DNA from: an uncultured Pseudomonadales bacterium
Lineage (GTDB): Bacteria > Patescibacteriota > Microgenomatia > UBA1400 > UBA12028
Direction: 5' to 3'
Length of the DNA: 64,000 nucleotides
Assembly (NCBI GenBank): GCA_964509365.1
Contig: CAZDWN010000002.1
Coordinates: 3,701 to 67,700 of the forward strand
Under the pieces are notes generated by a model, which was not told where the DNA came from, did no database searches, and saw nothing but the letters and a program-made list of their open reading frames with translations. The stretch's first letter is position 1; each line of letters begins with the position of its first letter. Both the position numbers and the translations under genes were made by a program. Positions 4,888 to 63,559 of the stretch are shown here, in pieces.

Positions 4888-7800
4888 ATGCCCTATAGTA
4901 GGTTGAAAAAAACTATCTGCGCTTGGATTGCGATCCTGGCCATCGTTTGTTCTACGCGCCCGTTTCAAGTATTGGCAGCTGGCACCAGCTACCAAGTTTG
5001 TAAAACAGCGGCCAATTGTACGGTGGGTGAGTATCTCTACGATGACTCCTACACCCCGATCACTTCTGCGACGTGCACGCTCACCAGTCGCAATACTGAT
5101 GGAACTCTGTATCACTCCAGTGTCGCGATGACGTCTGCGGCAGAAAATGATGGATGGTATTCGTACACGTTTGACACAACTGGAAAAGCTGAAGGCATCT
5201 ATCGCGCTCAAGTGTGTTGTACAAGTGGCAGTGACTACCTGTGCTTGGACAAGACATTTCAGATCAGTAGTACCAGTGCTCCGACGGCCGCCGAAGTGGC
5301 GTCGACAGTCTGGGATACGTCGGTCGCCTCTCATACTGTCGCGGGTTCGTTTGGCGCCAACCTCCAATCGCCAGCTCCTAGTGCCAGCGATATCTGGAAT
5401 TATTCCGGACGAAGTTTGACGACGTACGGCTCGCTCATCGCTGACATGTGGAGTTATTCGGGACGTTCTCTCACGAACTTCGGGACATTAATAGCTGATA
5501 TTTGGAGCAACGCGACCAGGACACTCACAGCGGGAATACTTTCCAATGGGACGCATATTGCGACGCAAGAAGACGTCCAGCTTGCGACTGACTCTGCCGT
5601 CGTCTCTATAAAGGGCGCTTCCAACAAAGATTTGACTCAAGTCGGTACGCAAGTGGCCGGAGTCCAATCGACCGCAGATACAATCAATGGCAAAGTAGAC
5701 ACATTGACGACGAGTGTCGGCACACTCAATACAAACATTTCTACCATCCTCACCAAGTGGGGATCCTATTCGGCTGCCGATATTTTGACCGCGGTCAATG
5801 GAGTCTCGACGACGATCGGGACCACCCTTGATACCTGTAGCAACAACACGGTATTTGGAAATGCCTACTGTGCGAAGTCAAAATGGGGAGTGGAGACTTC
5901 TTCCACACTTTTGACCGCGACGAACAATGTCGCGACGACGGCAGCTGCCCTACGAGCCGAACTTGCCTACAACGGCAAATCCACGACAGCGTATGAAGAC
6001 ATGCAGACACTGCTTACGAATTTGGGTACGGTATCTACTGGCGTCGGATCAGTGACTACCGCAATCAGTGGTGTCGATACCAAAGTCGATGCCGTCGCGC
6101 TCCAAGTCTTAGGCGTGCAAACGACTTCAAACACCATCAATGGGAAAGTCGATACTCTCATTTCGACGACAAATACGATCAATACGACGACGAGTACTGG
6201 TAGCGCTGCACTCGCGACTATCAATGCAAAGCTGGATTCCTTGGGGACAAAAGTCGATACACTGACGACCAATGTGACGACATTACTTGACAAGTGGGGA
6301 GCATACTCGGCAAGCGACATCTTCACGATTGTGTCGAGCCTCCAGACAAGTATTGGAACCAATAGCGACAGTTGTTTGTCGACGAGTTTATTTGGCTATG
6401 CGCGCTGTGCCAAAGAAAAATGGGGAACTGCGACGGCAGATGATTTGTTGACCGCCACGACTACTGTCGGTTCGACTGCCACTGCGCTACGAAATGAGCT
6501 TGCGTACAATGGCAAGTCGACGACCGCCTACGAAGATCTTCAAACGCTGTTGGCAAATTTAAGTTCGGTCTCGACGAATGTTAATACTGTTCACACGCAA
6601 GTGACCGGAATTGACACCAAGATGGATACGGTGACGGCCGACGTTCTCGGAATTAGTACGCAAGTCAGTACGGTCTCAGCGAAGATCGATGTGTTGACGA
6701 CCAAAGTCGACAACCTGGCGACGAGTGTGAGTGGCGTCGCCACCAATGTGACCTCGCTGCTCTCGCATTGGTCGACGTACACGATGAGTGATGTCATCAC
6801 AAAATTGACTTCGCTTGAGACGAGCCTCGGGACCTCATCGAACACTTGTGTCGATTTGACTGTCTTTGGTTATTTGACCTGCGTCGAAAACAATGGAGGT
6901 GGAGGTGGTGGAGGAAATGATGCCGCCATTCTCGCGGCTGCCACTGCTGCAGCGGCCGATGCTGCGGCTTTGCGTACGGAGCTTGATTACAATGGCAAGT
7001 CGACGACTGCATATGCCGATCTTCAAAATCTCAAGTCAAATATTACCACCATGCAGACGTTGATCGGTGGTAGTAGCGATGCCTCGAGTGCGACGACCTT
7101 ATTTGGGAGGATCAAAGATGTCCGTGAGACGATCGCCAATCTTGATACTTCTGGAGCGGGTCTTTCTGATCTGCTGGCCAAATGGGGGGATACCTCAGCC
7201 ACTGAGATCTACTCAAAAGTGAAAGATCTGTCAGAAAAAATTGATGCGGTGAATACGGTGTCTGATGTCTCGTCGATTCTAACGCTTTCCAAGGCAAATG
7301 CGGATGACATGCTCGTCCTCAAAAACAAAGTCTTAGAGCTTCGAGCGCTGACGCAACTCAATAAGACACTGCTGCAAGATGGCGCGACCAAGCCGGTTGT
7401 ACAGCTGTGGATGGAAGAAGGAAGTATCATCTTCAAAACTTTGATCACGAATCCTTCGAGCAGTAGTCAATCAGTCCCTGTGAAGTTTTACTTGCCGAAA
7501 GAAGCTGGCGAAAAAGACATCATGAAAATCGACACTGAGCTGACGGCGCATTATGATCCGGATCAAGACGCAGTCTACGTCGGCGGCAACTTCACCTTGG
7601 CGTCACATCAGACAAAGATCGTTTCGATTGAAGTGACTGATATCTGGAAAGTGACCGATGCCGAATTGTTGTCTTTACGTACGCAAGCAGACGAGTTGTT
7701 TAAACCTCTTGAAAAGACTTCGTACTTTGCGCAAGGGTCTACTCTCAAGTCTGATATCACTGCTGCCCTCGACACCGCCAAGCAAGTGCAAGCAGACGCC

Positions 7801-8826
7801 AAGACGCCAGAAGCGCGTATCAAAGCGTATAGAGATGCGACGTCCCAAGTGAAACGAGCGAAAGAAGATATGGCAAGTATGAAGACGTTGGTGACGCAAG
7901 CAGGTTCCGCAGGCTCCCTGCTCGGTTCGGTTGGCGGGATTCAAACCGTCGGGACTTGGGGTCTCATCATCATCTTGACGACCGGATTCGTCTTCTTAGC
8001 ACTCTACATGCGATTGTTGACGCAACAAATCCAAGCGCATCATGCGCAGCCAGTGAAAAAAACAGAAGCAGCATCCGCGGCACAATCTGCTCCTTCAAAT
8101 AAATTGGCATTCGTATTTCCAAATATTCCACCGGAAACGCGATTTATTGGGATGCTATTGATCGCGATTGTGGTCGCTGGTCTCGTGATCGCAATTGCTC
8201 TCAAGTCAAATTTCTTGCAGTCAAGTCGCATTGTACAGCCGACTCCGACACCGAAAGTACATGAGATCAGTGAGTCGCATCGCTCTCCTTCACCGAGTCC
8301 AAAGAGTACCGAACGTCTCGTCAAAGCACTTGAGAAGTATGGAGACTCCGTGAATTTGCGAGAAGGTCCTGGCAAGGAATTTGCTCTGGTCGGCACGATG
8401 AAAAAAGGCCAGTCCTATCCAGTCCTCGATACCTTGACCGACAAAACAAAGACGGTCTGGCTTGAGCTTTCGCAAGCTGCTACGAAAAAGGCATGGGTTT
8501 CCTCAGCATTTGTCGAAGACGTGGCTCAAATGTCGTCCACCTCAGGGTCAGGTGACGTCATGCTCAAAGACCAAAAACAGGTACTTGGCATCGCGACGGA
8601 ATCGAATCTTCCGAGCTACACGATCAATGAAGACAACGTAAAGCTTCGCATCCAACCAATTCCTGATTTTCGTTTTAAGATGATCTTAAGCAAAGGGATG
8701 AGAGTGACCAAGATCGGTGAAGAAAAAGAGTGGACCAATGTCGAGGTCTCGTATCAGGAAGGTCAATCGACCGTCGGGATCGATGGATGGGTGAAGACGG
8801 ATTATCTGGACAGGGCCGGCCTATGA
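4888..8826 (+). CDS. Giant secreted/membrane-anchored surface protein: signal peptide, ~1000-aa Thr/Ser-rich ectodomain with three tandem ~160-180-aa repeats, poly-Gly hinge, coiled-coil region, two TM helices, two C-terminal SH3b-like domains
   Basis: 1312-aa ORF. N-terminal hydrophobic signal. Repeats each contain 'KWGxYSxxDI...C...FGxxxC...ELAYNGKSTTAYEDxQTLL'. TM helices near aa 1020-1090. 'VNLREGPGKEFALVGTMKKGQSYPVLD' and 'MRVTKIGEEKEWTNVEVSYQEGQSTVGIDGWVKTDYL' look like bacterial SH3 domains. Confidence 0.8.
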   Translation: MPYSRLKKTICAWIAILAIVCSTRPFQVLAAGTSYQVCKTAANCTVGEYLYDDSYTPITSATCTLTSRNTDGTLYHSSVAMTSAAENDGWYSYTFDTTGKAEGIYRAQVCCTSGSDYLCLDKTFQISSTSAPTAAEVASTVWDTSVASHTVAGSFGANLQSPAPSASDIWNYSGRSLTTYGSLIADMWSYSGRSLTNFGTLIADIWSNATRTLTAGILSNGTHIATQEDVQLATDSAVVSIKGASNKDLTQVGTQVAGVQSTADTINGKVDTLTTSVGTLNTNISTILTKWGSYSAADILTAVNGVSTTIGTTLDTCSNNTVFGNAYCAKSKWGVETSSTLLTATNNVATTAAALRAELAYNGKSTTAYEDMQTLLTNLGTVSTGVGSVTTAISGVDTKVDAVALQVLGVQTTSNTINGKVDTLISTTNTINTTTSTGSAALATINAKLDSLGTKVDTLTTNVTTLLDKWGAYSASDIFTIVSSLQTSIGTNSDSCLSTSLFGYARCAKEKWGTATADDLLTATTTVGSTATALRNELAYNGKSTTAYEDLQTLLANLSSVSTNVNTVHTQVTGIDTKMDTVTADVLGISTQVSTVSAKIDVLTTKVDNLATSVSGVATNVTSLLSHWSTYTMSDVITKLTSLETSLGTSSNTCVDLTVFGYLTCVENNGGGGGGGNDAAILAAATAAAADAAALRTELDYNGKSTTAYADLQNLKSNITTMQTLIGGSSDASSATTLFGRIKDVRETIANLDTSGAGLSDLLAKWGDTSATEIYSKVKDLSEKIDAVNTVSDVSSILTLSKANADDMLVLKNKVLELRALTQLNKTLLQDGATKPVVQLWMEEGSIIFKTLITNPSSSSQSVPVKFYLPKEAGEKDIMKIDTELTAHYDPDQDAVYVGGNFTLASHQTKIVSIEVTDIWKVTDAELLSLRTQADELFKPLEKTSYFAQGSTLKSDITAALDTAKQVQADAKTPEARIKAYRDATSQVKRAKEDMASMKTLVTQAGSAGSLLGSVGGIQTVGTWGLIIILTTGFVFLALYMRLLTQQIQAHHAQPVKKTEAASAAQSAPSNKLAFVFPNIPPETRFIGMLLIAIVVAGLVIAIALKSNFLQSSRIVQPTPTPKVHEISESHRSPSPSPKSTERLVKALEKYGDSVNLREGPGKEFALVGTMKKGQSYPVLDTLTDKTKTVWLELSQAATKKAWVSSAFVEDVAQMSSTSGSGDVMLKDQKQVLGIATESNLPSYTINEDNVKLRIQPIPDFRFKMILSKGMRVTKIGEEKEWTNVEVSYQEGQSTVGIDGWVKTDYLDRAGL
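5386..5535 (+). repeat. Three short in-frame repeats 'SxSGRSLT(T/N)(Y/F)G(S/T)LIAD(M/I)WS' inside the giant protein
   Basis: Read directly in translation: SASDIWNYSGRSLTTYGSLIADMWSYSGRSLTNFGTLIADIWSNATRTLTAG. Confidence 0.7.
5755..7032 (+). repeat. Three tandem coding repeats (units starting near 5755, 6292, 6766) each with a conserved Cys pair and 'AYNGKSTTAYEDxQTLL' motif. Poly-Gly run encoded at 6895..6915
   Basis: Protein-level tandem repeat seen in the ORF translation. Unit boundaries approximate. Confidence 0.75.
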
Positions 8827-9813: not shown

Positions 9814-9887
9814 GCGGCTATGGTTCAGTGGTAGAACACGTCCTTGCCAAGGACGAAATGCGGGTTCGATTCCCGCTAGCCGCTCCA
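9814..9887 (+). tRNA. tRNA-Gly (anticodon GCC), CCA encoded
   Basis: Manual fold: acceptor GCGGCTA/TAGCCGC, D-arm, anticodon stem CGTCC/GGACG with loop TTGCCAA (GCC), T-arm GCGGG-TTCGATT-CCCGC, discriminator T, CCA. Confidence 0.9.
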
Positions 9888-9999
9888 AATGTACACGACG
9901 TATGTACTAAAAAATACTTCTTCTGGTCGCCATTACATCGGATCGACCAACGATTTACCCCGGAGATTGAGTGAGCACAACCGAAGTTTGGTGAGAATA

Positions 10000-10317
10000 C
10001 TACTCTTGAGTATCTTCATTTCCCGATAGGCTTTCCTGCATGTAACGATAGACAATTGAAATAACTTCACGGATATCGTCATTCGCATTTTTGTATGCAA
10101 GCTTATCAAAAGCGACATCCCTGAGTTCTCGAATTGGATCACTAATTAACGCATGGATAAAAGACTGTGTGGCTCCACTTATACCCTTAAAATCTAGAAT
10201 AACTTCGTCACCACTTGATAAGGCTGGCATAATTTCTTCAATTCTCAACTTCTTTGCGATGTCTTTGTTTTCTGCGAATTCTCCAACTATTTTTTTCATT
10301 TTGATACTTTTCTTCAT
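10000..10317 (-). CDS. STAS-like (DUF4325-like) small protein, partner of the upstream GHKL ATPase
   Basis: 105 aa. 'EVILDFKGISGATQSFIHALI' resembles STAS/anti-sigma-antagonist-like DUF4325 as I recall it. ATGA start/stop overlap with the ATPase gene. A+T-rich. Confidence 0.55.
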   Translation of the reverse strand: MKKSIKMKKIVGEFAENKDIAKKLRIEEIMPALSSGDEVILDFKGISGATQSFIHALISDPIRELRDVAFDKLAYKNANDDIREVISIVYRYMQESLSGNEDTQE

Positions 10318-11282
10318 ATAAATCTTGGCTCTTTATAGGTTCCTTTTTTTCGTTCTCGAATGGCTTTATCATATACTTCACCAATGCTTGATAGCAGTTG
10401 ATTAAGTTCTGGTGTCTCATCGAGTGAAATATCTACTGCTACTAATGTTCCTTGAAAACTTGGAGCAGTGTTTGTCTTACTATGTAGATCGCGAGTTGGA
10501 TCTGCATACAATCTGGGTGCAACTTTGACTCGTTTATCATGTTTTAACAATGTATATTCTCCGGTACCGCTATAGATGACAAAATAGTTGCGTGTAGTCT
10601 TGGCAATAGATTTAATAAAGAATAAACCTGCTCCTGCATTTTCTGCAGTTCCTCCTTCTTTGCGAGTTGTCCCAGTAATCCCTGGAGTTAAAGCTAGTTT
10701 AATTGCTTCGATATCATTTTTAGGATGCCAGTACGTATTCATACTCTTCCAGATTCCTATACCTGTATCACAAATTCCTATGCTGACACGATTCGTTTTT
10801 TTGTAATACTGAGCAGCAACAATGGCTCCATTCTTTGCAAATGAATGTTCTAATACGTTTCTCACCAATTCGCCAATGATATATTTCACTACTACAGCAT
10901 TTTCTTCAGATAAATGGAGAAGTGGAATCATGTCAGTAATAAACGTAGACTGATCTTCGGCAGTTTTTATAACTTTAATCGGAACAAATCTACCCGCTTC
11001 CTCCTTTTTATGATATGAAAATGGAGAAGAAGTACTGGTGAGGTCATACAACCCCATCCTATCTAAGTAGAGGCCAGTATCAGGAACTTCTCCAATAATT
11101 TCAGAGTTTATCTTCCCCACCTGAATTGCTAAAGCAGCAGCCAAAACAAGATTTGCGGGATGAACTGTGACCCACTTATCATGTGTTGATATCTGGAGCT
11201 TTTCAGGCTCAGATAATTCAAGTGATTCAGCAAAACCTCTGAAATTTCTTAAATTGCCTTGATTTGACAAATGTATCTTCAT
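10314..11282 (-). CDS. GHKL-superfamily (histidine-kinase-like) ATPase with ~120-aa N-terminal domain of unknown function
   Basis: 322 aa. N-box 'ELVRNVLEHS', G1 'GICDTGIGI', G2 'GAGLFFIKS'. No HisKA/phospho-acceptor domain and no TM. Confidence 0.7.
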   Translation of the reverse strand: MKIHLSNQGNLRNFRGFAESLELSEPEKLQISTHDKWVTVHPANLVLAAALAIQVGKINSEIIGEVPDTGLYLDRMGLYDLTSTSSPFSYHKKEEAGRFVPIKVIKTAEDQSTFITDMIPLLHLSEENAVVVKYIIGELVRNVLEHSFAKNGAIVAAQYYKKTNRVSIGICDTGIGIWKSMNTYWHPKNDIEAIKLALTPGITGTTRKEGGTAENAGAGLFFIKSIAKTTRNYFVIYSGTGEYTLLKHDKRVKVAPRLYADPTRDLHSKTNTAPSFQGTLVAVDISLDETPELNQLLSSIGEVYDKAIRERKKGTYKEPRFI

Positions 11283-11292
11283 ACATGAATTC

Positions 11293-11379
11293 TACCCGTA
11301 GAGCGTGTTTATGTCAATACACGCTCTACGGGGTGATTTTTGCCCGTAGAGCGTGTTTTCTCGAGAAGACGTTCTACGG
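11293..11379. promoter_or_regulatory. Twin palindromes sharing arm CCCGTAGAGCGTGT in the divergent promoter region of the GHKL-STAS operon and the 11424 membrane gene
   Basis: Palindrome 1: CCCGTAGAGCGTGT-N10-ACACGCTCTACGGG (11293..11330), followed by TGATTTTTG. Palindrome 2: 39-nt imperfect palindrome 11341..11379 centred on CTCGAG. Read directly from the sequence. Confidence 0.5.
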
Positions 11380-11423
11380 GGAGAGATGCTGTCGTGGCGG
11401 GAAAATGAGAGTTTTTCCACCAA

Positions 11424-58656: not shown

Positions 58657-61569
58657 TTACTTAAATTTCTTAATAACTACATCAACTAGTCTGTTTAGTA
58701 ATTTTGGAAATACCGTAGCATCAACCGAATCTTTGTAATTTTTAAGGAGCACTTCCTGAATTGTCTGCTTTATTGATTTTATGAACTCTTCTCTCTTTGA
58801 AGAATTTTGCCAGTTCGTATCAAGATTTGCGTTCAACTCATACGTTAGTGTATGAGTAATATCACCAAGTTTTTCGTCTTTCTGATCTGTAATGAACTCT
58901 TGTAAAAGTCTAAAAATACCCATCTCTTGCAGAGAAAAACCTAATGCCTTGGCCTCCTCATGTTTAGTTTTCATGTCGTCGAGCAGGTGATAGTATCGTT
59001 TAATCCGTTCAGATAAATCGATTTGCTGTTTTTCAAACTCTTCCTTAATCACTGCCAGCCGTTCACTAAATTTTAAGAAGCTTGGATCAGAATCTATCTG
59101 TATACGAAGTTCATGTTGAATAATTCTTTCTAATTGGATTGCTTTCTCTTCCTGAGAATCATTGGTCAATTTGTTTAAGACATAAATATCGTTGACCGTA
59201 AGTTCTCTGAAATTGCGTGTAATTCCTTCATAATCAATCTTATCCTGAATGATTTTCTTCACTTTTTCTCCATATTCAGCGAGTATTTCGTTATCATTTT
59301 CTGGAGATCTGTAGGTTTTCACAAACGCAAGATAAAAGGATGTGATCCACTCGAAACGTCGCAAATACGGAAGTAAAAAAGGGTCAGGAGACAAAATCTC
59401 ATAATACATGCGCAAGGAACTATAACGGTCAACAAAGTAATTTTGTTTTTGCTCATTATCCGAAAAGATCTTGAGCGCTCGACGAAGATTTTCCATCGAA
59501 GGATCTTCTATCGAGATAGTAATAAAGAGCTCCATTACTTGATCAATAGTTTCTGAAAATTGATCCTTTATTTTGGCAATGTTGACCAATGCAGCATCGA
59601 CGATACTCTCATCAAAGTTTAATGAGTCGTATAGGTTTTTTGTTATTCCATAATAATCAATTATTCTTCCACAACCTTTATTGGGGTAAACTCTGTTTGT
59701 TCTTGCTATCGCCTGAAGCAGATTATGATCGCGTAATGGTTTATCGAGGTACATCACTTGTTCAATAGGGGCATCAAAGCCAGTCAGTAACATATCGCAC
59801 ACAATCAAAAATCGAATTGAGCCTTGTGCATCTTTAAATCTGGAGATGATATCCTCACGCTCTTGTTTGCTTGTGTGATGCAGCTTGAGGTCTTCATTTT
59901 CAGTATTGGGATCACCCGGGGAGTAGACTACTACTGACCACTCTGTGGGGATCAATGTATCGAGGAGTGATTTATACTTTGCTGCAGATTCGCGATCGTA
60001 GCATACGAGCTGCGCTTTAAATCCATTTGGCTCCACATAGAGTCTAAAGTGCTCGACAAGATCTTTCGCAATTGTTTCCATCCGCTTGTCAAGTTTTATT
60101 AGCGCTGCTTTCTTGCCATATTTTCGCATGAGTATGTCTTTTTGCTCTGAGGACAGATCAGTTGTCAGTGAATCGAACTGCTCGTCTACTTTTTGCTCAT
60201 CAATCGAAAACTTCGAAAGCCTGGCTTCATATGTCACAGGTAATGTTGCTCCATCGTCAATCGCCTGCTGGATGGAGTAATAATCTAAGTATCTTTCTCC
60301 GACCTCTCCAAAATTTCTATGAGTATTGAGTGTTGTTTTGTCTATTGGAGTACCCGTAAATCCAAAGAAAAATGCATTGTGCATGGAAGATCTCAAATGG
60401 ATGGCTGACACTCCTTCGTTGTCACGATGTGCTTCATCAGACAGTACAATAATATTTTCATTGTGATTCACTATAGTGCTGCTCAATTCACTAAATTTCT
60501 GAACAGTTGAGATAAATATTCCACGCTGCGGACTTTGAATCTTTTGTTCCAGGTCTTTCCTAGAGGTCACGCGAATTACATTTTCGCCACCGCAATGAAT
60601 GAACGTGTCGTGTATCTGATCGTCGAGATCAATGCGGTCGACAAGGACGAACACTTTTGGATTTTTAAGCTTTGGGTCAAAACGCAGTTTCCACGCTGAA
60701 AAAAACATAGTGAGGCTTTTTCCTGATCCCTGAGTGTGCCAGATTAGTCCTTTTCTTTTCTCGCCATTTTGAACTCGTTCCACGATTTTGTTGGTTGCTC
60801 GTACCTGCTGATATCTAGCGATCTTCTTCTCTTTTCCAGTCTTGGTTTTCTCAAAGACAATGAAGTTATCGATGAGATCAAGCACATTTTTCGGATCCAA
60901 TAACGAAAAGAGTGTCATCTCCAAAGATCCTCCAAGGTCGGTCTCGAGTTTCTCATCTTTCCACTGTAAAAACGACTGAAGTGGAGCGTATGTAGCGCCA
61001 TACATTGTTTGCAGTCCATCTGTGGCAATGTTGAAACAATTTGGCAGAAAGAGGCGTGGAGCATTTTTTTCATATCTCTTCAGTTGACCGACAGCGAGTG
61101 AGTAGTCGACGACTATACTGGCTGTCGGACTTTTCGCTTCGATATCGACGACAGGTATGCCATTGATGAAGACGAGAATATCTGGGCGTATGTTTTCTAG
61201 CGTCCCTTCAAAATAGAACTGGTTGGTGATCACAAACCGATTGTTGCCTTGCTTTGCCACGTCGATGACACGGTAGTCTTGCATCTTCCCCGTTTGCTGA
61301 TTCTTGATATTAATGCCATCACGAAACAATTTGAGAAAAGACTCGTTGCTGTCGATCTTTCGAATTTCTCGCAGCACACTGGCTGCCTCATCGTCATCGA
61401 TGGCATTGATTTTTTTGATTGCGTCAGTCAAATGAGAGGTTATGAGTAATTCATTCTCAAATTCACGAAGTTTTGAGAACTGTTCTGGTGGAATATACTC
61501 ATACCCCAGCGTCTTTGTGAGGAACTTGATGATATGTCTCTCCACTGTATATTCTTCGTTAAATTTCAT
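58657..61569 (-). CDS. hsdR: Type I restriction enzyme R (endonuclease/helicase) subunit
   Basis: 970 aa. N-terminal nuclease region. SF2 helicase Walker A 'HTQGSGKSLTM', 'LSDEAHR' DEAH box, helicase C-terminal motifs. A+T-rich. Confidence 0.9.
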   Translation of the reverse strand: MKFNEEYTVERHIIKFLTKTLGYEYIPPEQFSKLREFENELLITSHLTDAIKKINAIDDDEAASVLREIRKIDSNESFLKLFRDGINIKNQQTGKMQDYRVIDVAKQGNNRFVITNQFYFEGTLENIRPDILVFINGIPVVDIEAKSPTASIVVDYSLAVGQLKRYEKNAPRLFLPNCFNIATDGLQTMYGATYAPLQSFLQWKDEKLETDLGGSLEMTLFSLLDPKNVLDLIDNFIVFEKTKTGKEKKIARYQQVRATNKIVERVQNGEKRKGLIWHTQGSGKSLTMFFSAWKLRFDPKLKNPKVFVLVDRIDLDDQIHDTFIHCGGENVIRVTSRKDLEQKIQSPQRGIFISTVQKFSELSSTIVNHNENIIVLSDEAHRDNEGVSAIHLRSSMHNAFFFGFTGTPIDKTTLNTHRNFGEVGERYLDYYSIQQAIDDGATLPVTYEARLSKFSIDEQKVDEQFDSLTTDLSSEQKDILMRKYGKKAALIKLDKRMETIAKDLVEHFRLYVEPNGFKAQLVCYDRESAAKYKSLLDTLIPTEWSVVVYSPGDPNTENEDLKLHHTSKQEREDIISRFKDAQGSIRFLIVCDMLLTGFDAPIEQVMYLDKPLRDHNLLQAIARTNRVYPNKGCGRIIDYYGITKNLYDSLNFDESIVDAALVNIAKIKDQFSETIDQVMELFITISIEDPSMENLRRALKIFSDNEQKQNYFVDRYSSLRMYYEILSPDPFLLPYLRRFEWITSFYLAFVKTYRSPENDNEILAEYGEKVKKIIQDKIDYEGITRNFRELTVNDIYVLNKLTNDSQEEKAIQLERIIQHELRIQIDSDPSFLKFSERLAVIKEEFEKQQIDLSERIKRYYHLLDDMKTKHEEAKALGFSLQEMGIFRLLQEFITDQKDEKLGDITHTLTYELNANLDTNWQNSSKREEFIKSIKQTIQEVLLKNYKDSVDATVFPKLLNRLVDVVIKKFK

Positions 61570-61571
61570 AG

Positions 61572-62420
61572 TTACTTCTTTTTCTCAAGTAGCTTCTTCA
61601 TCTTATCAGTAAACGTCTTGGCCTTACTTTTTCTAGTTTGAATTTCCTCTACGAGATAGATCAAAATATTTTTAATATTATCTGCTGACTCCAAACATTC
61701 TTCGTCTGTTCTATTATGGAGCCCATCGCTCAATGATGAATGTAGGAGCTTTAGCGGATTGTTGCCATTAGGCTGTAAGGATGTTGGAAGAAGATCTTGG
61801 ACTAGTTCGATCTTTTGTTCGGCAACTCGAGTTTTTTTGACTTGATCCAGTGCATCTTTATATTTTCCTTTGTCTTCCTCATCAATAAGATCCTCGACGG
61901 ATATTAGAAGTTCGTCTATTATCTTTTCGGTAATTTGTCGGAAGTATGCATACGCACCGATTCCATAACTCTCTGATTCGCAAACGAGCCCTTTCTTGTA
62001 AAGGTCGGCATGCTCACCGAGCGTCTTTTCTAGTTTTGGGTCCATGTCTATTTCCCACTGAGGTGTTTGCCCAATTTTTTGAACGCTGCCACTGTAATAA
62101 ATGGTGCCATTCTTTTCAGCTTTAGTCTTTAGTGAAAATAATACGTAGAAGTGATAAAAATAGGAATTACAGGCCGAACACAAATACCTCATTCGTATAG
62201 GAACTCCCCAAACATCAATAGTTTTAGCTCCATATTCATTTGATGCAAGGATCTCCCAGATTTCGTTACTTATATTAAACGTTTGGACGGAACCACAACT
62301 CTTGCAGTACATATTAATTGCAGGGGTGGATATGTCATCGAGCTGCGTATTGTAGTAAGGCTCATCGACTTTTAGCTTTCGATAAAGTGGATACGTTTCT
62401 AAAAACTCTTTTGTGATCAT
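61572..62420 (-). CDS. Hypothetical protein embedded between hsdS and hsdR, with N-terminal CxxC...CxxC zinc-finger-like motif (possibly DUF4145-like)
   Basis: 282-aa ORF overlapping hsdS by 4 nt and 2 nt from hsdR. 'CKSCGS...CSACNS'. C-terminal region reminiscent of DUF4145 accessory proteins of R-M loci (recollection, uncertain). Confidence 0.55.
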   Translation of the reverse strand: MITKEFLETYPLYRKLKVDEPYYNTQLDDISTPAINMYCKSCGSVQTFNISNEIWEILASNEYGAKTIDVWGVPIRMRYLCSACNSYFYHFYVLFSLKTKAEKNGTIYYSGSVQKIGQTPQWEIDMDPKLEKTLGEHADLYKKGLVCESESYGIGAYAYFRQITEKIIDELLISVEDLIDEEDKGKYKDALDQVKKTRVAEQKIELVQDLLPTSLQPNGNNPLKLLHSSLSDGLHNRTDEECLESADNIKNILIYLVEEIQTRKSKAKTFTDKMKKLLEKKK

Positions 62421-63559
62421 ATGTCTGCCTTTCTCCCAAATATCTCTTTCATAATTCCTGATTTTGTATTCCTCAGTGTAAATTGAGCTTTCCTTTCCAA
62501 CTCGATCTTTTGATCCAATGTATATAAAAGGTCGGCGATTTTCTTCTGTTCCTCAATGGGTGGAAGTGGAATTTTGATCTTCTTAAAAAATGATAAGCCA
62601 ATGGTTTTTATCGTGGAACCCGATGCTATTTGCTCAAAAACTGGCTTCCTGTGCTGAAGAATGTAATAAAGGAATAGGTTGTTTAACCTTTCTCCACACC
62701 TCCAGGCAATGAAATGCTGGCTAACTGCCATTGGTTCAGTTGTTATTGCACTTTTTCCAATACCGGCATCCCTAGATAAGACGACAACCCCTTCGGGATG
62801 CATAACTGCAGAAGAATGCTCAATCCCTTCCTGAGAAATCTGCTTTGATGTCTGTGAAATGTATACCCGGTCGAGTCTAAAGGTGTCTGAAAGAGATATC
62901 CACTTAATTCCTCCATTCCAATAATTTGGAAATGTTTTATTTGGAGTATGACCACTCCCTCTTTTGGCAACGTGATCTAATAATTCAACTTCCCAATTTT
63001 CAGGAATACTGCCAATCTCAGTTTTCTTAAAATCTGTATGCCCAATGCCTTTGGTCAAAAGTTCCTGCATCAAGCCTTGCTTTAGTTCTTCTGTCTTTTG
63101 AATAGTTTGATCTGTGATGCTAATGGCGTTATCAACGATTTCTAATTCACTCGCGATTTTCTTCTGTACACTACGTGCGGGGAGTGAAATCTCTAATTTA
63201 TAAACATCATCCCTGTTAAGTCCAGGTACACCTGTCCCTCGATTCATCTTGCCTAGCTCGAGTGTTTGGAGCATGAAATAAATCCATTTAAGATCCACCA
63301 TATCACTTTCAGTAATGTAGTAGGTGGTATCAATCGGCCAAAAAGGTTCGTCAGACCATTCAAGCTTTCCTATACTCCCTTTTCTACCGACAATTATTCC
63401 TTTTGTGTTTACAAGACTATTTCCATTCGTCCCTACGATTCCATTAGAGCCATATACAGGAATATCTCCAGGAGTCCTTTTTTGGGAAGGCAAATTCTTA
63501 CCATATTCAAGTTTTAAGATGTCTCCAATTTTTATCTTTTTCAAATTTTGAGTTGACAT
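62417..63559 (-). CDS. hsdS: Type I restriction-modification specificity subunit
   Basis: 380 aa with two target-recognition domains separated by a conserved helical spacer ('LKQGLMQELLTKG') and a C-terminal conserved helix. Confidence 0.85.
   Translation of the reverse strand: MSTQNLKKIKIGDILKLEYGKNLPSQKRTPGDIPVYGSNGIVGTNGNSLVNTKGIIVGRKGSIGKLEWSDEPFWPIDTTYYITESDMVDLKWIYFMLQTLELGKMNRGTGVPGLNRDDVYKLEISLPARSVQKKIASELEIVDNAISITDQTIQKTEELKQGLMQELLTKGIGHTDFKKTEIGSIPENWEVELLDHVAKRGSGHTPNKTFPNYWNGGIKWISLSDTFRLDRVYISQTSKQISQEGIEHSSAVMHPEGVVVLSRDAGIGKSAITTEPMAVSQHFIAWRCGERLNNLFLYYILQHRKPVFEQIASGSTIKTIGLSFFKKIKIPLPPIEEQKKIADLLYTLDQKIELERKAQFTLRNTKSGIMKEIFGRKADI

What the first reader, a model, noticed from the sequence alone, without database searches (positions are those of the whole stretch)
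9814..11423. A+T-rich GHKL-ATPase plus STAS(DUF4325-like) two-gene module inserted beside tRNA-Gly
Immediately downstream of tRNA-Gly(GCC) lies a minus-strand operon of a 322-aa GHKL ATPase (N/G1/G2 boxes, no HisKA, no TM, unknown N-terminal 120 aa) and an ATGA-coupled 105-aa STAS-like protein. The segment is visibly more A+T-rich than the flanking lipoprotein and PIG-L genes. There is no sigma factor or phosphatase partner, as a canonical RsbW/RsbV partner-switch would have. A GHKL plus STAS pair at a tRNA-adjacent, compositionally atypical locus looks like a small horizontally acquired sensing/abortive-infection-type module rather than housekeeping regulation. I do not recognise it as a named defence system.
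Basis: partly seen in the sequence, partly recalled or inferred. Interest (0 to 1): 0.7.

Follow-up and report, generated by a model that had tools for sequence, protein, structure and literature searches.

The report
Effector-less VapK/VapS-like kinase–STAS sensor cassette
A small mobile two-gene cassette in a candidate-phyla-radiation bacterium encodes a sensor kinase and its STAS-domain substrate, related to the CapK/CapS and VapK/VapS anti-phage regulators described in 2026, but it has no attached toxin or DNA-binding domain, so what it switches is still unknown.

Summary
A 322-aa GHKL protein (K) and a 105-aa DUF4325/STAS protein (S) are joined by an ATGA overlap next to tRNA-Gly, in a GC trough (0.373 vs 0.468, z = -2.8).

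It is not an unknown kind of system. K aligns over both its domains to VapK (hhalign 98%, E 3e-13) and to CapK. S and VapS both belong to Pfam DUF4325. S52 lines up with the proven CapS phospho-site S54. These proteins are ssDNA-activated Ser kinases and their STAS substrates (Chambers et al., EMBO J 2026).

The window version is a distinct, undescribed variant:
- K has no HTH, S has no wHTH, and no VapC toxin or conserved third gene is present.
- A conserved 38-nt palindromic operator wraps a consensus promoter placed for a leaderless mRNA. It is present in every related locus with enough upstream sequence.
- The 1.35-kb cassette sits in many contexts: a phage moron between head and tail genes, between hsdS and hsdR, and beside AbiE, Fic/DGR and zeta-toxin genes.
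- Single-chain K-S fusions occur in proteobacterial defence islands and on a conjugative element.
- Synonymous sites are saturated, yet dN/dS is below 0.05.

The output and the operator-binding factor remain unknown.

The parts
10314..11282 (-). K gene: 322-aa VapK/CapK-like Ser/Thr protein kinase. Residues 1-105 form the N-terminal STAS-like sensor domain, about 108-290 the GHKL (SpoIIAB-type) kinase domain, and 293-315 a C-terminal helix followed by a conserved basic tail ending ..K-x-P-R-F.
10000..10317 (-). S gene: 105-aa DUF4325 (STAS-like) protein, a VapS-type kinase substrate. It is translationally coupled to K through a 4-nt ATGA overlap.
   Evidence: Pfam PF14213 E 8.9e-11. VapS is in the same Pfam family, E 2.7e-17. 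Profile vs PDB 9z7o VapS E 5e-5. hhalign vs VapS 88%, E 3e-6. BLASTP vs VapS 37% identity, E 1.7e-5. ATGA overlap in 33 of 33 loci.
10162..10170 (-). Codons for T50-Q51-S52 of S. S52 is the predicted phospho-acceptor.
   Evidence: S52 and F53 are invariant in 18 diverse DUF4325 sequences, including fusions and the phage copy. A gapless alignment puts S52-F53 on CapS S54-F55, the proven phospho-site (sequences; PMC13373217). In the fusion model this block lies at the N-terminus of the helix that follows the beta-strand and Gly loop.
11295..11332 (.). Proximal operator: a 38-nt palindrome, CCCGTAGAGCGTGT-N10-ACACGCTCTACGGG, ending 12 nt before the ATG.
   Evidence: Found by the repeat scan. Present at the same position in every related locus with enough upstream sequence and in the 61%-identical phage copy. 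87% of cells are paired, against 30-45% when the pairing is slid, with compensatory changes at 5 pairs. Absent elsewhere in the window.
11289..11317 (-). Sigma-70-type promoter: -35 TTGACA (11312-11317) in the centre of the palindrome, a 17-nt spacer that is the right arm, then -10 TAGAAT (11289-11294). The ATG follows 6 nt later, predicting a leaderless mRNA.
   Evidence: Promoter scan 11 of 12 matches. The same geometry holds in all loci.
11343..11380 (.). Distal, more degenerate second copy of the palindrome, in tandem with a 48-nt period and without a -35 box.
   Evidence: A second copy is also seen in L002/3, L007, L008, L012, L013, L015 and L020.
9814..9887 (+). tRNA-Gly(GCC): a flanking landmark convergent with the S gene (112-bp gap), not part of the cassette.
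   Evidence: ARAGORN. No repeat of its 3' end in the window. Other loci have different tRNAs within about 300 bp: Phe, Lys, Met and Ser.

Best explanation
The locus is a minimal two-gene member of the CapK/CapS-VapK/VapS family of kinase-substrate sensor pairs.

K is a STAS-plus-GHKL Ser/Thr protein kinase of the SpoIIAB type. S is its small STAS-only (DUF4325) substrate.

By homology (inferred), K is held inactive until it binds single-stranded DNA produced by phage replication or DNA damage. It then phosphorylates S on the invariant Ser52. That changes the oligomeric state of S or releases whatever S holds.

The pair is transcribed from its own consensus promoter as a probably leaderless, translationally coupled bicistron. 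The promoter is buried in a conserved palindromic operator, so the cassette is most likely autorepressed and de-repressed on activation. This parallels capS autoregulation.

The 1.35-kb cassette (operator, K and S) is an old, strongly constrained accessory unit. It is carried as a moron by phages and by variable or defence regions of Patescibacteria. In Proteobacteria the same two parts occur fused into one protein in defence islands and on a conjugative element.

Shown here: the homology, architecture, catalytic motifs, conservation of the phospho-site, conservation of the operator and promoter, the contexts, and the absence of VapC.

Inferred: ssDNA activation, phosphorylation of S52, autorepression, leaderless translation, and a defence-related role.

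Unknown: the output, and which protein binds the operator.
For: Family and fold:
- K family profile vs VapK: 98%, E 3e-13, 245 columns covering both domains. Vs CapK: 97%, E 2e-11. Pairwise BLASTP E 1.6e-6.
- The ATP-binding motifs are intact.
- S and VapS are both Pfam DUF4325. The S profile hits the VapS crystal structure 9z7o at E 5e-5.
- S52 and F53 are invariant and align to CapS S54-F55.

Functional link between K and S:
- Gene order K then S with an ATGA overlap in 33 of 33 loci.
- About 300 clusters of natural single-chain K-S fusions.
- The fusion model hits both SpoIIAB and the STAS protein RsbS.

Operator and promoter:
- Conserved in every locus while synonymous sites are saturated (pS 0.79, dN/dS < 0.05).
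- Retained in a 61%-identical phage copy.
- Found in IMG/VR only in the three K-carrying contigs.

Contexts:
- Siphophage moron between the head and tail modules.
- Between hsdS and hsdR.
- Beside AbiEii, Fic, DGR, zeta-toxin, resolvase and Cas1 genes.
- Fusions beside TIR, HEPN_AbiU2, RES, GmrSD, integrases and a TrwC relaxase.
- PHROG families exist for both forms.

Experimental mechanism for CapK/CapS and genetic, structural and phage-protection data for VapKSC: PMC13373217.
Against: - No effector is present. tblastn with VapC finds nothing in the window or in 51 loci, and no third gene is conserved.
- S lacks the wHTH that CapS uses to bind DNA, and K lacks CapK's HTH. The operator therefore has no identified binding protein.
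- The S profile is not significantly similar to CapS. K is only about 21% identical to VapK.
- The ssDNA-contacting aromatic residue (CapK W68, VapK F54) could not be mapped.
- Extreme purifying selection and zero indels are unusual for defence genes.
- In this window the neighbours are ordinary genes.
- The neighbourhood survey has no matched background, so enrichment is not formally shown.
- The K-S docking geometry could not be computed here.
Confidence: 0.6

Rival explanations
1. Self-contained toxin-antitoxin or abortive-infection pair. K itself is the effector: either a toxic kinase, or an anti-sigma-like binder of a conserved host protein such as RNA polymerase sigma. S is its pseudo-substrate antitoxin. 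Loss or phosphorylation of S frees K to arrest growth.
For: - K has the SpoIIAB anti-sigma kinase fold.
- The bicistron is promoter/operator-autoregulated and translationally coupled, as in type II TA loci.
- The cassette is carried by a phage, a conjugative element and islands.
- Strong constraint would fit a conserved cellular target.
- No other effector is encoded.
Against: - Covalent K-S fusions are common, which is odd for a toxin and a labile antitoxin.
- In the characterised relatives the kinase is the sensor and not the toxin (PMC13373217).
- No toxicity data exist.
Confidence: 0.2
2. CapKS-like 'controller of adjacent pathway'. The pair is a transcriptional regulator of whatever operon lies next to it, for example hsdR in L001 or a TIR effector in Pseudomonas.
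For: - CapK/CapS regulate downstream immune operons, and 88 of 443 lie just downstream of an R-M system.
- In L001 the pair lies 13 bp upstream of hsdR and downstream of hsdS.
- The fusion in Pseudomonas follows a CAP12/PCTIR TIR gene.
- A palindromic operator overlaps the promoter.
Against: - S has no DNA-binding domain.
- The downstream genes are unrelated between loci.
- In the window nothing lies downstream except a convergent tRNA.
- The operator occurs only upstream of K, never in front of a neighbouring gene.
Confidence: 0.12
3. Ordinary partner-switching stress regulator (RsbW/RsbV or SpoIIAB/SpoIIAA type) that controls a sigma factor encoded elsewhere, meaning housekeeping regulation in CPR bacteria.
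For: - Fold and closest solved structures.
- JGI labels homologs 'anti-sigma regulatory factor'.
- Very strong purifying selection.
Against: - No sigma factor or PP2C appears among the annotated neighbours listed.
- K has the extra VapK/CapK sensor domain.
- The genomic position differs in almost every genome, and a phage carries the pair.
- Only 19 hits were found among 185,579 GTDB species representatives with exact-peptide seeds.
Confidence: 0.08

Closest known systems
VapK/VapS of the vapKSC anti-phage toxin-antitoxin system (Chambers et al., EMBO J 2026, PMC13373217; PDB 9Z7O)
   Same: - K has the same two-domain build (STAS-like domain plus GHKL kinase, no HTH) and aligns to VapK over about 245 columns.
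- S and VapS are both Pfam DUF4325 and about 37% identical over the core.
- The gene order is K then S.
- There is an invariant Ser/Thr at the start of the second STAS helix.
- Both associate with phage and defence contexts.
   Different: - No VapC/PIN gene anywhere nearby.
- S is shorter (105 vs 116 aa), and its alignment to VapS stops before the VapC-inhibiting C-terminal helix.
- K is only about 21% identical to VapK and carries a conserved basic C-terminal ..KxPRF tail.
- The cassette has its own palindromic operator and leaderless promoter, which are not described for vapKSC.
- The host range is Patescibacteria and their phages.
CapK/CapS, the DNA-damage-responsive controllers of CBASS, Bub and Thoeris operons (same paper)
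   Same: - The kinase core and STAS sensor domain are homologous.
- S52-F53 aligns without gaps to the proven phospho-site S54-F55.
- Palindromes overlapping the promoter suggest autoregulation, as shown for capS.
   Different: - K lacks the N-terminal HTH.
- S lacks the wHTH DNA-binding domain and is not significantly similar to CapS by profile.
- There is no conserved downstream immune operon.
- The operator sequence and geometry differ (14-nt arms around the -35 box, vs TTAA half-sites).
SpoIIAB/SpoIIAA, RsbW/RsbV and UsfX/RsfB partner-switching modules
   Same: - The substrate has a STAS fold, with the phosphorylatable Ser at the equivalent position.
   Different: - No sigma factor and no PP2C phosphatase.
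- The kinase has an extra N-terminal sensor domain.
- The cassette is mobile and phage-borne.
SiaB/SiaC (Pseudomonas aeruginosa SiaABCD)
   Different: No SiaA phosphatase or SiaD cyclase partner is present. There is no sequence-level relationship beyond the fold.

Membership tests
VapK/CapK-type sensor kinase | STAS-like domain followed by a GHKL kinase domain in one polypeptide | tested here: met
   hhalign of the K family profile covers VapK 29-286 and CapK 89-258, spanning both domains. The AF2 model shows an alpha/beta N-terminal domain followed by a Bergerat fold.
VapK/CapK-type sensor kinase | Intact kinase active site (N-box Asn equivalent to CapK N218, plus G1 and G2 boxes) | tested here: met
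   N142, D172, G174, G176, G217 and G219 are invariant in 28 diverse homologs.
VapK/CapK-type sensor kinase | Immediately followed by a gene for a STAS protein with an invariant Ser/Thr | tested here: met
   33 of 33 loci have an ATGA overlap. S52 is invariant.
VapK/CapK-type sensor kinase | Activation by ssDNA through a conserved aromatic residue (CapK W68, VapK F54) in the groove between the STAS and GHKL domains | not testable with these tools
   The residue could not be mapped reliably from the OCR'd sequences, and no protein-DNA modelling was available. Biochemistry is needed.
CapK (strict sense) | N-terminal HTH domain | tested here: not met
   K starts directly with the STAS-like domain. 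The alignment to CapK begins at CapK residue 89.
CapS | [quoted passage not shown] | tested here: not met
   S is 105 aa and consists of DUF4325 only. hhalign vs CapS gives probability 0.2%.
VapS / Pfam DUF4325 | Membership of PF14213 with a conserved phosphorylatable Ser/Thr | tested here: met
   S scores 41.8 bits and VapS 62.7 bits against a cutoff of 23. The profile hits 9z7o at E 5e-5.
VapS / Pfam DUF4325 | C-terminal helix (VapS 94-116) that inhibits VapC | tested here: inconclusive
   The alignment to VapS covers only residues 19-77. S ends at residue 105 with a short acidic tail.
vapKSC toxin-antitoxin system | Third gene encoding a VapC-like PIN nuclease | tested here: not met
   tblastn with VapC gives no hit at E <= 0.01 in the window or in 51 loci. 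No PIN domain appears in the annotated contexts.
RsbW/RsbV or SpoIIAB/SpoIIAA partner switch | Anti-sigma-type GHKL Ser kinase plus a STAS antagonist | tested here: met
   [not shown]
RsbW/RsbV or SpoIIAB/SpoIIAA partner switch | Cognate sigma factor and PP2C phosphatase in the locus | tested here: not met
   None appears among the annotated neighbours listed for the window or for about 25 related contexts.
DISARM DrmA | Large DEAD/H helicase protein | tested here: not met
   Only positions 43-225 of the 1750-position PADLOC model match. K has no helicase domain.

The most novel reading that the evidence does not exclude
The K-S-only cassette is a complete, self-sufficient ssDNA-triggered switch in which the kinase itself is the output. 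After phosphorylating and releasing S, K would bind or phosphorylate a conserved host protein (for example sigma or RNA polymerase, in SpoIIAB fashion) to arrest the cell. The conserved palindrome would do double duty. As duplex it would be the autorepression operator. As a stable hairpin (dG about -17 kcal/mol), once the region becomes single-stranded, it would be a built-in ssDNA ligand for K. This would be a new effector logic for the CapK/VapK family, and one of the few immune or addiction modules described for Patescibacteria and their phages.
Probability: 0.2. Interest if true: 0.8.

Novelty: new variant of a known kind. Interest (0 to 1): 0.55.

Why it matters
The CapK/CapS and VapK/VapS pairs were described only in 2026, and only where they are attached to an obvious output: a wHTH repressor domain or a VapC toxin.

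This locus shows a much larger, undescribed branch of the same sensor pair, with about 2,000 clusters at 50% identity for the kinase. That branch has no attached output. It is spread through Patescibacteria and their phages, and it is fused into single proteins in proteobacterial defence islands.

This raises a concrete, testable question: what does a DNA-damage or ssDNA sensor kinase and its STAS substrate control when nothing is attached?

The locus also supplies ready experimental handles:
- an invariant Ser52;
- a sharply defined 38-nt operator with natural compensatory variants;
- a candidate specificity residue, K249.

It also assigns a probable function to Pfam DUF4325 and to PHROGs 3364 and 5816, and it adds to the very sparse knowledge of phage-host conflict systems in CPR bacteria.

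Tried and rejected
1. tRNA-directed integration. No repeat of the tRNA-Gly 3' end (25-mer or 16-mer, up to 3 mismatches) occurs in the window. No terminal repeats flank the cassette. DNA homology between loci ends at the S stop codon.

2. N-terminal domain as a DUF4325 duplicate. hhalign probability is 0.6%. My earlier reading of the Foldseek hit 6m36_C as RsbV was wrong, because chains of that size in 6m36 are RsbW.

3. Modelling the K-S complex. A natural fusion was modelled instead, but coordinates are not exposed, so no interface distances could be measured.

4. P0258 as a fusion. It is probably a frameshift artefact. P0349, P0352 and about 300 other proteins are genuine fusions.

5. Operator upstream of the proteobacterial fusions. 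No equivalent conserved palindrome was found.

6. Operator as part of a regulon. There is no second copy in the window, in the loci or in the phage contigs, and it occurs in IMG/VR only in the K-carrying contigs.

7. PADLOC membership. The only hit is a partial one to the N-terminus of a DrmA model.

8. Close relatives in the GenBank phage and PLSDB plasmid collections. Only distant hits (19-35% identity) were found.

9. Recent-sweep explanation for the 77-93% identity. Rejected, because synonymous sites are saturated.

10. Literature searches for PF14213 and for 'STAS-like' plus phage defence returned nothing. The key paper was reached only through the PDB hit to 'VapS'.
Full report
**Observation.** The features are all present.
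- tRNA-Gly(GCC) lies at 9814-9887 on the + strand.
- Convergent with it are two minus-strand ORFs: 10314-11282 (322 aa, 'K') and 10000-10317 (105 aa, 'S'). They overlap by ATGA.
- S is DUF4325 above Pfam's cutoff. K hits HATPase_c and HATPase_c_2 only weakly.
- K's N-box, G1 and G2 residues are invariant or nearly so across 28 homologs of 28-52% identity.
- The GC trough is significant: 0.373 against 0.468, z = -2.8, lowest 0.64% of windows.
- No att-like repeat of the tRNA 3' end exists.
- The flanking genes are ordinary: an SH3 surface protein, a PrsW-like protein, PIG-L, a hydrolase, GNAT, EamA and GDH.

Directly upstream of K lie two tandem palindromes.
- The proximal one (11295-11332) is CCCGTAG-N24-CTACGGG with 14-nt arms.
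- The -35 TTGACA sits in its centre. The right arm forms the 17-nt spacer. The -10 TAGAAT abuts it. The ATG follows 6 nt later (11 of 12 consensus matches). This geometry predicts a leaderless mRNA, which is an inference.
- The same element, in the same register, precedes K in every related locus with enough upstream sequence.
- 87% of pair cells are complementary, against 30-45% when the pairing is slid. Five pairs show compensatory changes.
- It is absent elsewhere in the 64-kb window.
- Synonymous sites between copies are saturated (pS 0.79), so this non-coding conservation reflects selection.
- There are two operator 'alleles': inner arm TGC-type and CGT-type. These track K residue 249 in a basic surface loop. 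Residue 249 is Asp in 8 of 8 CGT-type loci and never Asp in 15 TGC-type loci (p = 2e-6). The divergent phage copy also has a CGT-type operator with D249. The two classes behave as weak clades, so this link is only suggestive.
- As ssDNA the element folds into a stable hairpin (-17 kcal/mol, z about -8 to -10).

**Distribution and evolution.**
- Both proteins have hundreds of homologs at 77-93% identity in metagenomes and MAGs labelled Pace-, Moran-, Woese-, Gottesman-, Levy-, Shapiro-, Sacchari- and Gracilibacteria.
- All K genes are exactly 966 nt. dN/dS is below 0.05.
- Module GC is below flank GC in 22 of 24 loci, but it correlates with host GC (r = 0.79). The clade is therefore old and tightly constrained, not a recent sweep.
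- Homology between loci covers only the operator, K and S, about 1.35 kb in all.
- Beyond this clade the K family is large: 1,962 clusters at 50% identity, mostly about 320 aa.

**Contexts.**
- In an IMG/VR siphophage contig a 61%-identical pair, with the same operator, sits between the head genes (TerL, portal, protease/major head protein) and the tail genes (tape measure, minor tail). That makes it a moron.
- PHROGs holds families for K (phrog_3364) and for a fused K-S form (phrog_5816).
- In L001 the pair lies between hsdS and hsdR.
- Elsewhere it adjoins FokI R-M genes with a serine recombinase, a zeta toxin with GIY-YIG, DUF6922/AbiEii with an integrase, or DUF3768 with a resolvase, Fic and a DGR.
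- Some sites look ordinary: the contig carrying P0028 and this window.
- A bulk scan of 124 neighbours in 21 loci shows a mix of accessory and housekeeping families. No sigma factor, PP2C or PIN appears among the recurrent families. There was no matched background, so enrichment is not formally shown.
- tRNAs of five different kinds lie within about 300 bp in 5 of 24 distinct loci.

**Fusions.** About 300 clusters of roughly 420-aa proteins in Proteobacteria combine K and DUF4325 in one chain.
- Pseudomonas: next to a CAP12/PCTIR TIR protein, a giant kinase-helicase, HEPN_AbiU2 and RES.
- Castellaniella: on a conjugative element, between TrwC/AbiEii and RES/TraG.
- Burkholderia: next to a resolvase, GmrSD, integrases and a KAP NTPase.
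- Paraburkholderia: alone among metabolic genes.

This is Rosetta-stone evidence that K and S act together. The fusion model (pLDDT 80) places the invariant T-Q-S-F block at the N-terminus of the helix that follows a beta-strand and a Gly loop. That model also hits SpoIIAB and the STAS protein RsbS.

**Identification.**
- The DUF4325 profile hit PDB 9z7o, 'Escherichia VapS' (E 5e-5). That led to Chambers et al., EMBO J 2026 (PMC13373217).
- In that paper CapK (HTH-STAS-GHKL) is activated by ssDNA and phosphorylates CapS (STAS-wHTH) on S54. This dissociates the CapS dimer from promoter-overlapping palindromes and de-represses capS and a downstream immune operon.
- In vapKSC, VapK (STAS-GHKL) is proposed to phosphorylate VapS (a STAS domain plus a short C-terminal region, at S48) and so release the PIN toxin VapC. 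The operon protects against phage Bas42.
- Tests here:
  - K profile vs VapK: 98%, E 3e-13, both domains.
  - K profile vs CapK: 97%, E 2e-11.
  - S profile vs VapS: 88%, E 3e-6.
  - Pairwise BLASTP is significant for K-VapK and for S-VapS.
  - VapS is itself Pfam DUF4325 (E 2.7e-17) and VapC is PIN. This also explains the 2017 note that a VapC clade is 'transcriptionally coupled to DUF4325 genes'.
  - The S profile vs CapS is not significant. Even so...ILDFKGISGATQS52F... aligns without gaps to CapS ...EISLEGIVATDSS54F...
  - S52 and F53 are the only strictly invariant residues in 18 diverse DUF4325 sequences.

**What differs.**
- K has no HTH and S has no wHTH.
- No VapC is detectable in the window or in 51 loci, and no third gene is conserved.
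- K carries a conserved basic C-terminal ..KxPRF tail.
- The operator and leaderless promoter are specific to this clade. The proteobacterial fusions have no equivalent.
- The paper does not mention DUF4325, K-S-only pairs, fusions or Patescibacteria.

**Mechanism.** The best-supported model is an autoregulated kinase-substrate switch that responds to ssDNA or DNA damage. It travels as a phage- and island-borne accessory cassette.
- Shown: the homology, motifs, coupling, operator conservation and contexts.
- Inferred by homology: the activation signal, phosphorylation of S52 and autorepression.
- Open: the output and the operator-binding factor (notebook, 'unexplained').

Rival explanations are a self-contained toxin-antitoxin pair with K as the effector, a CapKS-like controller of adjacent genes, and a housekeeping partner switch. 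They are weighed in the Rival explanations section.

**Verdict.** The module is a new variant of a very recently described kind. Interest is moderate, at 0.55.

Noticed in passing
window 58657-63559 (- strand): The window's other low-GC patch is a type I R-M locus, with hsdS at 62417-63559 and hsdR at 58657-61569. A 282-aa ORF (61572-62420) is wedged between them, the position used by PrrC-type embedded defence genes. It has no Pfam or PADLOC match.
   Followed up: partly
window 10314-11282 (K residues 37-220) vs PADLOC model PDLC02567: The N-terminal positions 43-225 of a 1750-position DISARM DrmA model match K (E 2.9e-14). This suggests that some DrmA helicases carry a CapK/VapK-like STAS+GHKL sensor module at their N-terminus.
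   Followed up: no
L036 7011-9257 (Pseudomonas canadensis CP159257.1): A single-chain K-S fusion follows a CAP12/PCTIR TIR-domain gene by 166 bp on the same strand, inside an island with a 2103-aa kinase-helicase, HEPN_AbiU2 and RES. It could be a TIR effector under K-S control.
   Followed up: partly
L001 2-5023: The K-S pair is inserted between hsdS (Methylase_S) and hsdR (13-bp gap) of a type I R-M operon.
   Followed up: yes
L002/L003 3168-3479 and L033-L035 (e.g. L033 7368-7691): A DUF3768 gene recurs near the cassette in two otherwise unrelated contexts, both with a serine recombinase. L033-35 also carry Fic and a diversity-generating retroelement (bAvd + RT). This may be a shared mobile element.
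   Followed up: no
L007, L009, L013 (GTDB representative contigs): Contigs carrying the CPR-clade cassette are labelled 'uncultured Pseudomonadales'. These are probably mis-binned or mislabelled MAGs.
   Followed up: no
L029 1-534: An FtsH gene interrupted by an intein with a LAGLIDADG endonuclease, in a Pacebacteria-type contig.
   Followed up: no
window 4888-8826 (+): A 1312-aa protein with a signal peptide. It is highly repetitive and rich in Thr, Ser and Ala, has coiled-coil-like repeats and a C-terminal SH3_3 domain, and looks like a large surface protein.
   Followed up: no
L010 5264-5471; L013 96-341; L018 423-705; L029 5569-5851: A pair of adjacent tRNA-Met genes, one of them unusually short (70 nt), recurs 0.3-3.5 kb upstream of the cassette in several loci. 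The two genes are divergent in three loci and on the same strand in L010.
   Followed up: no
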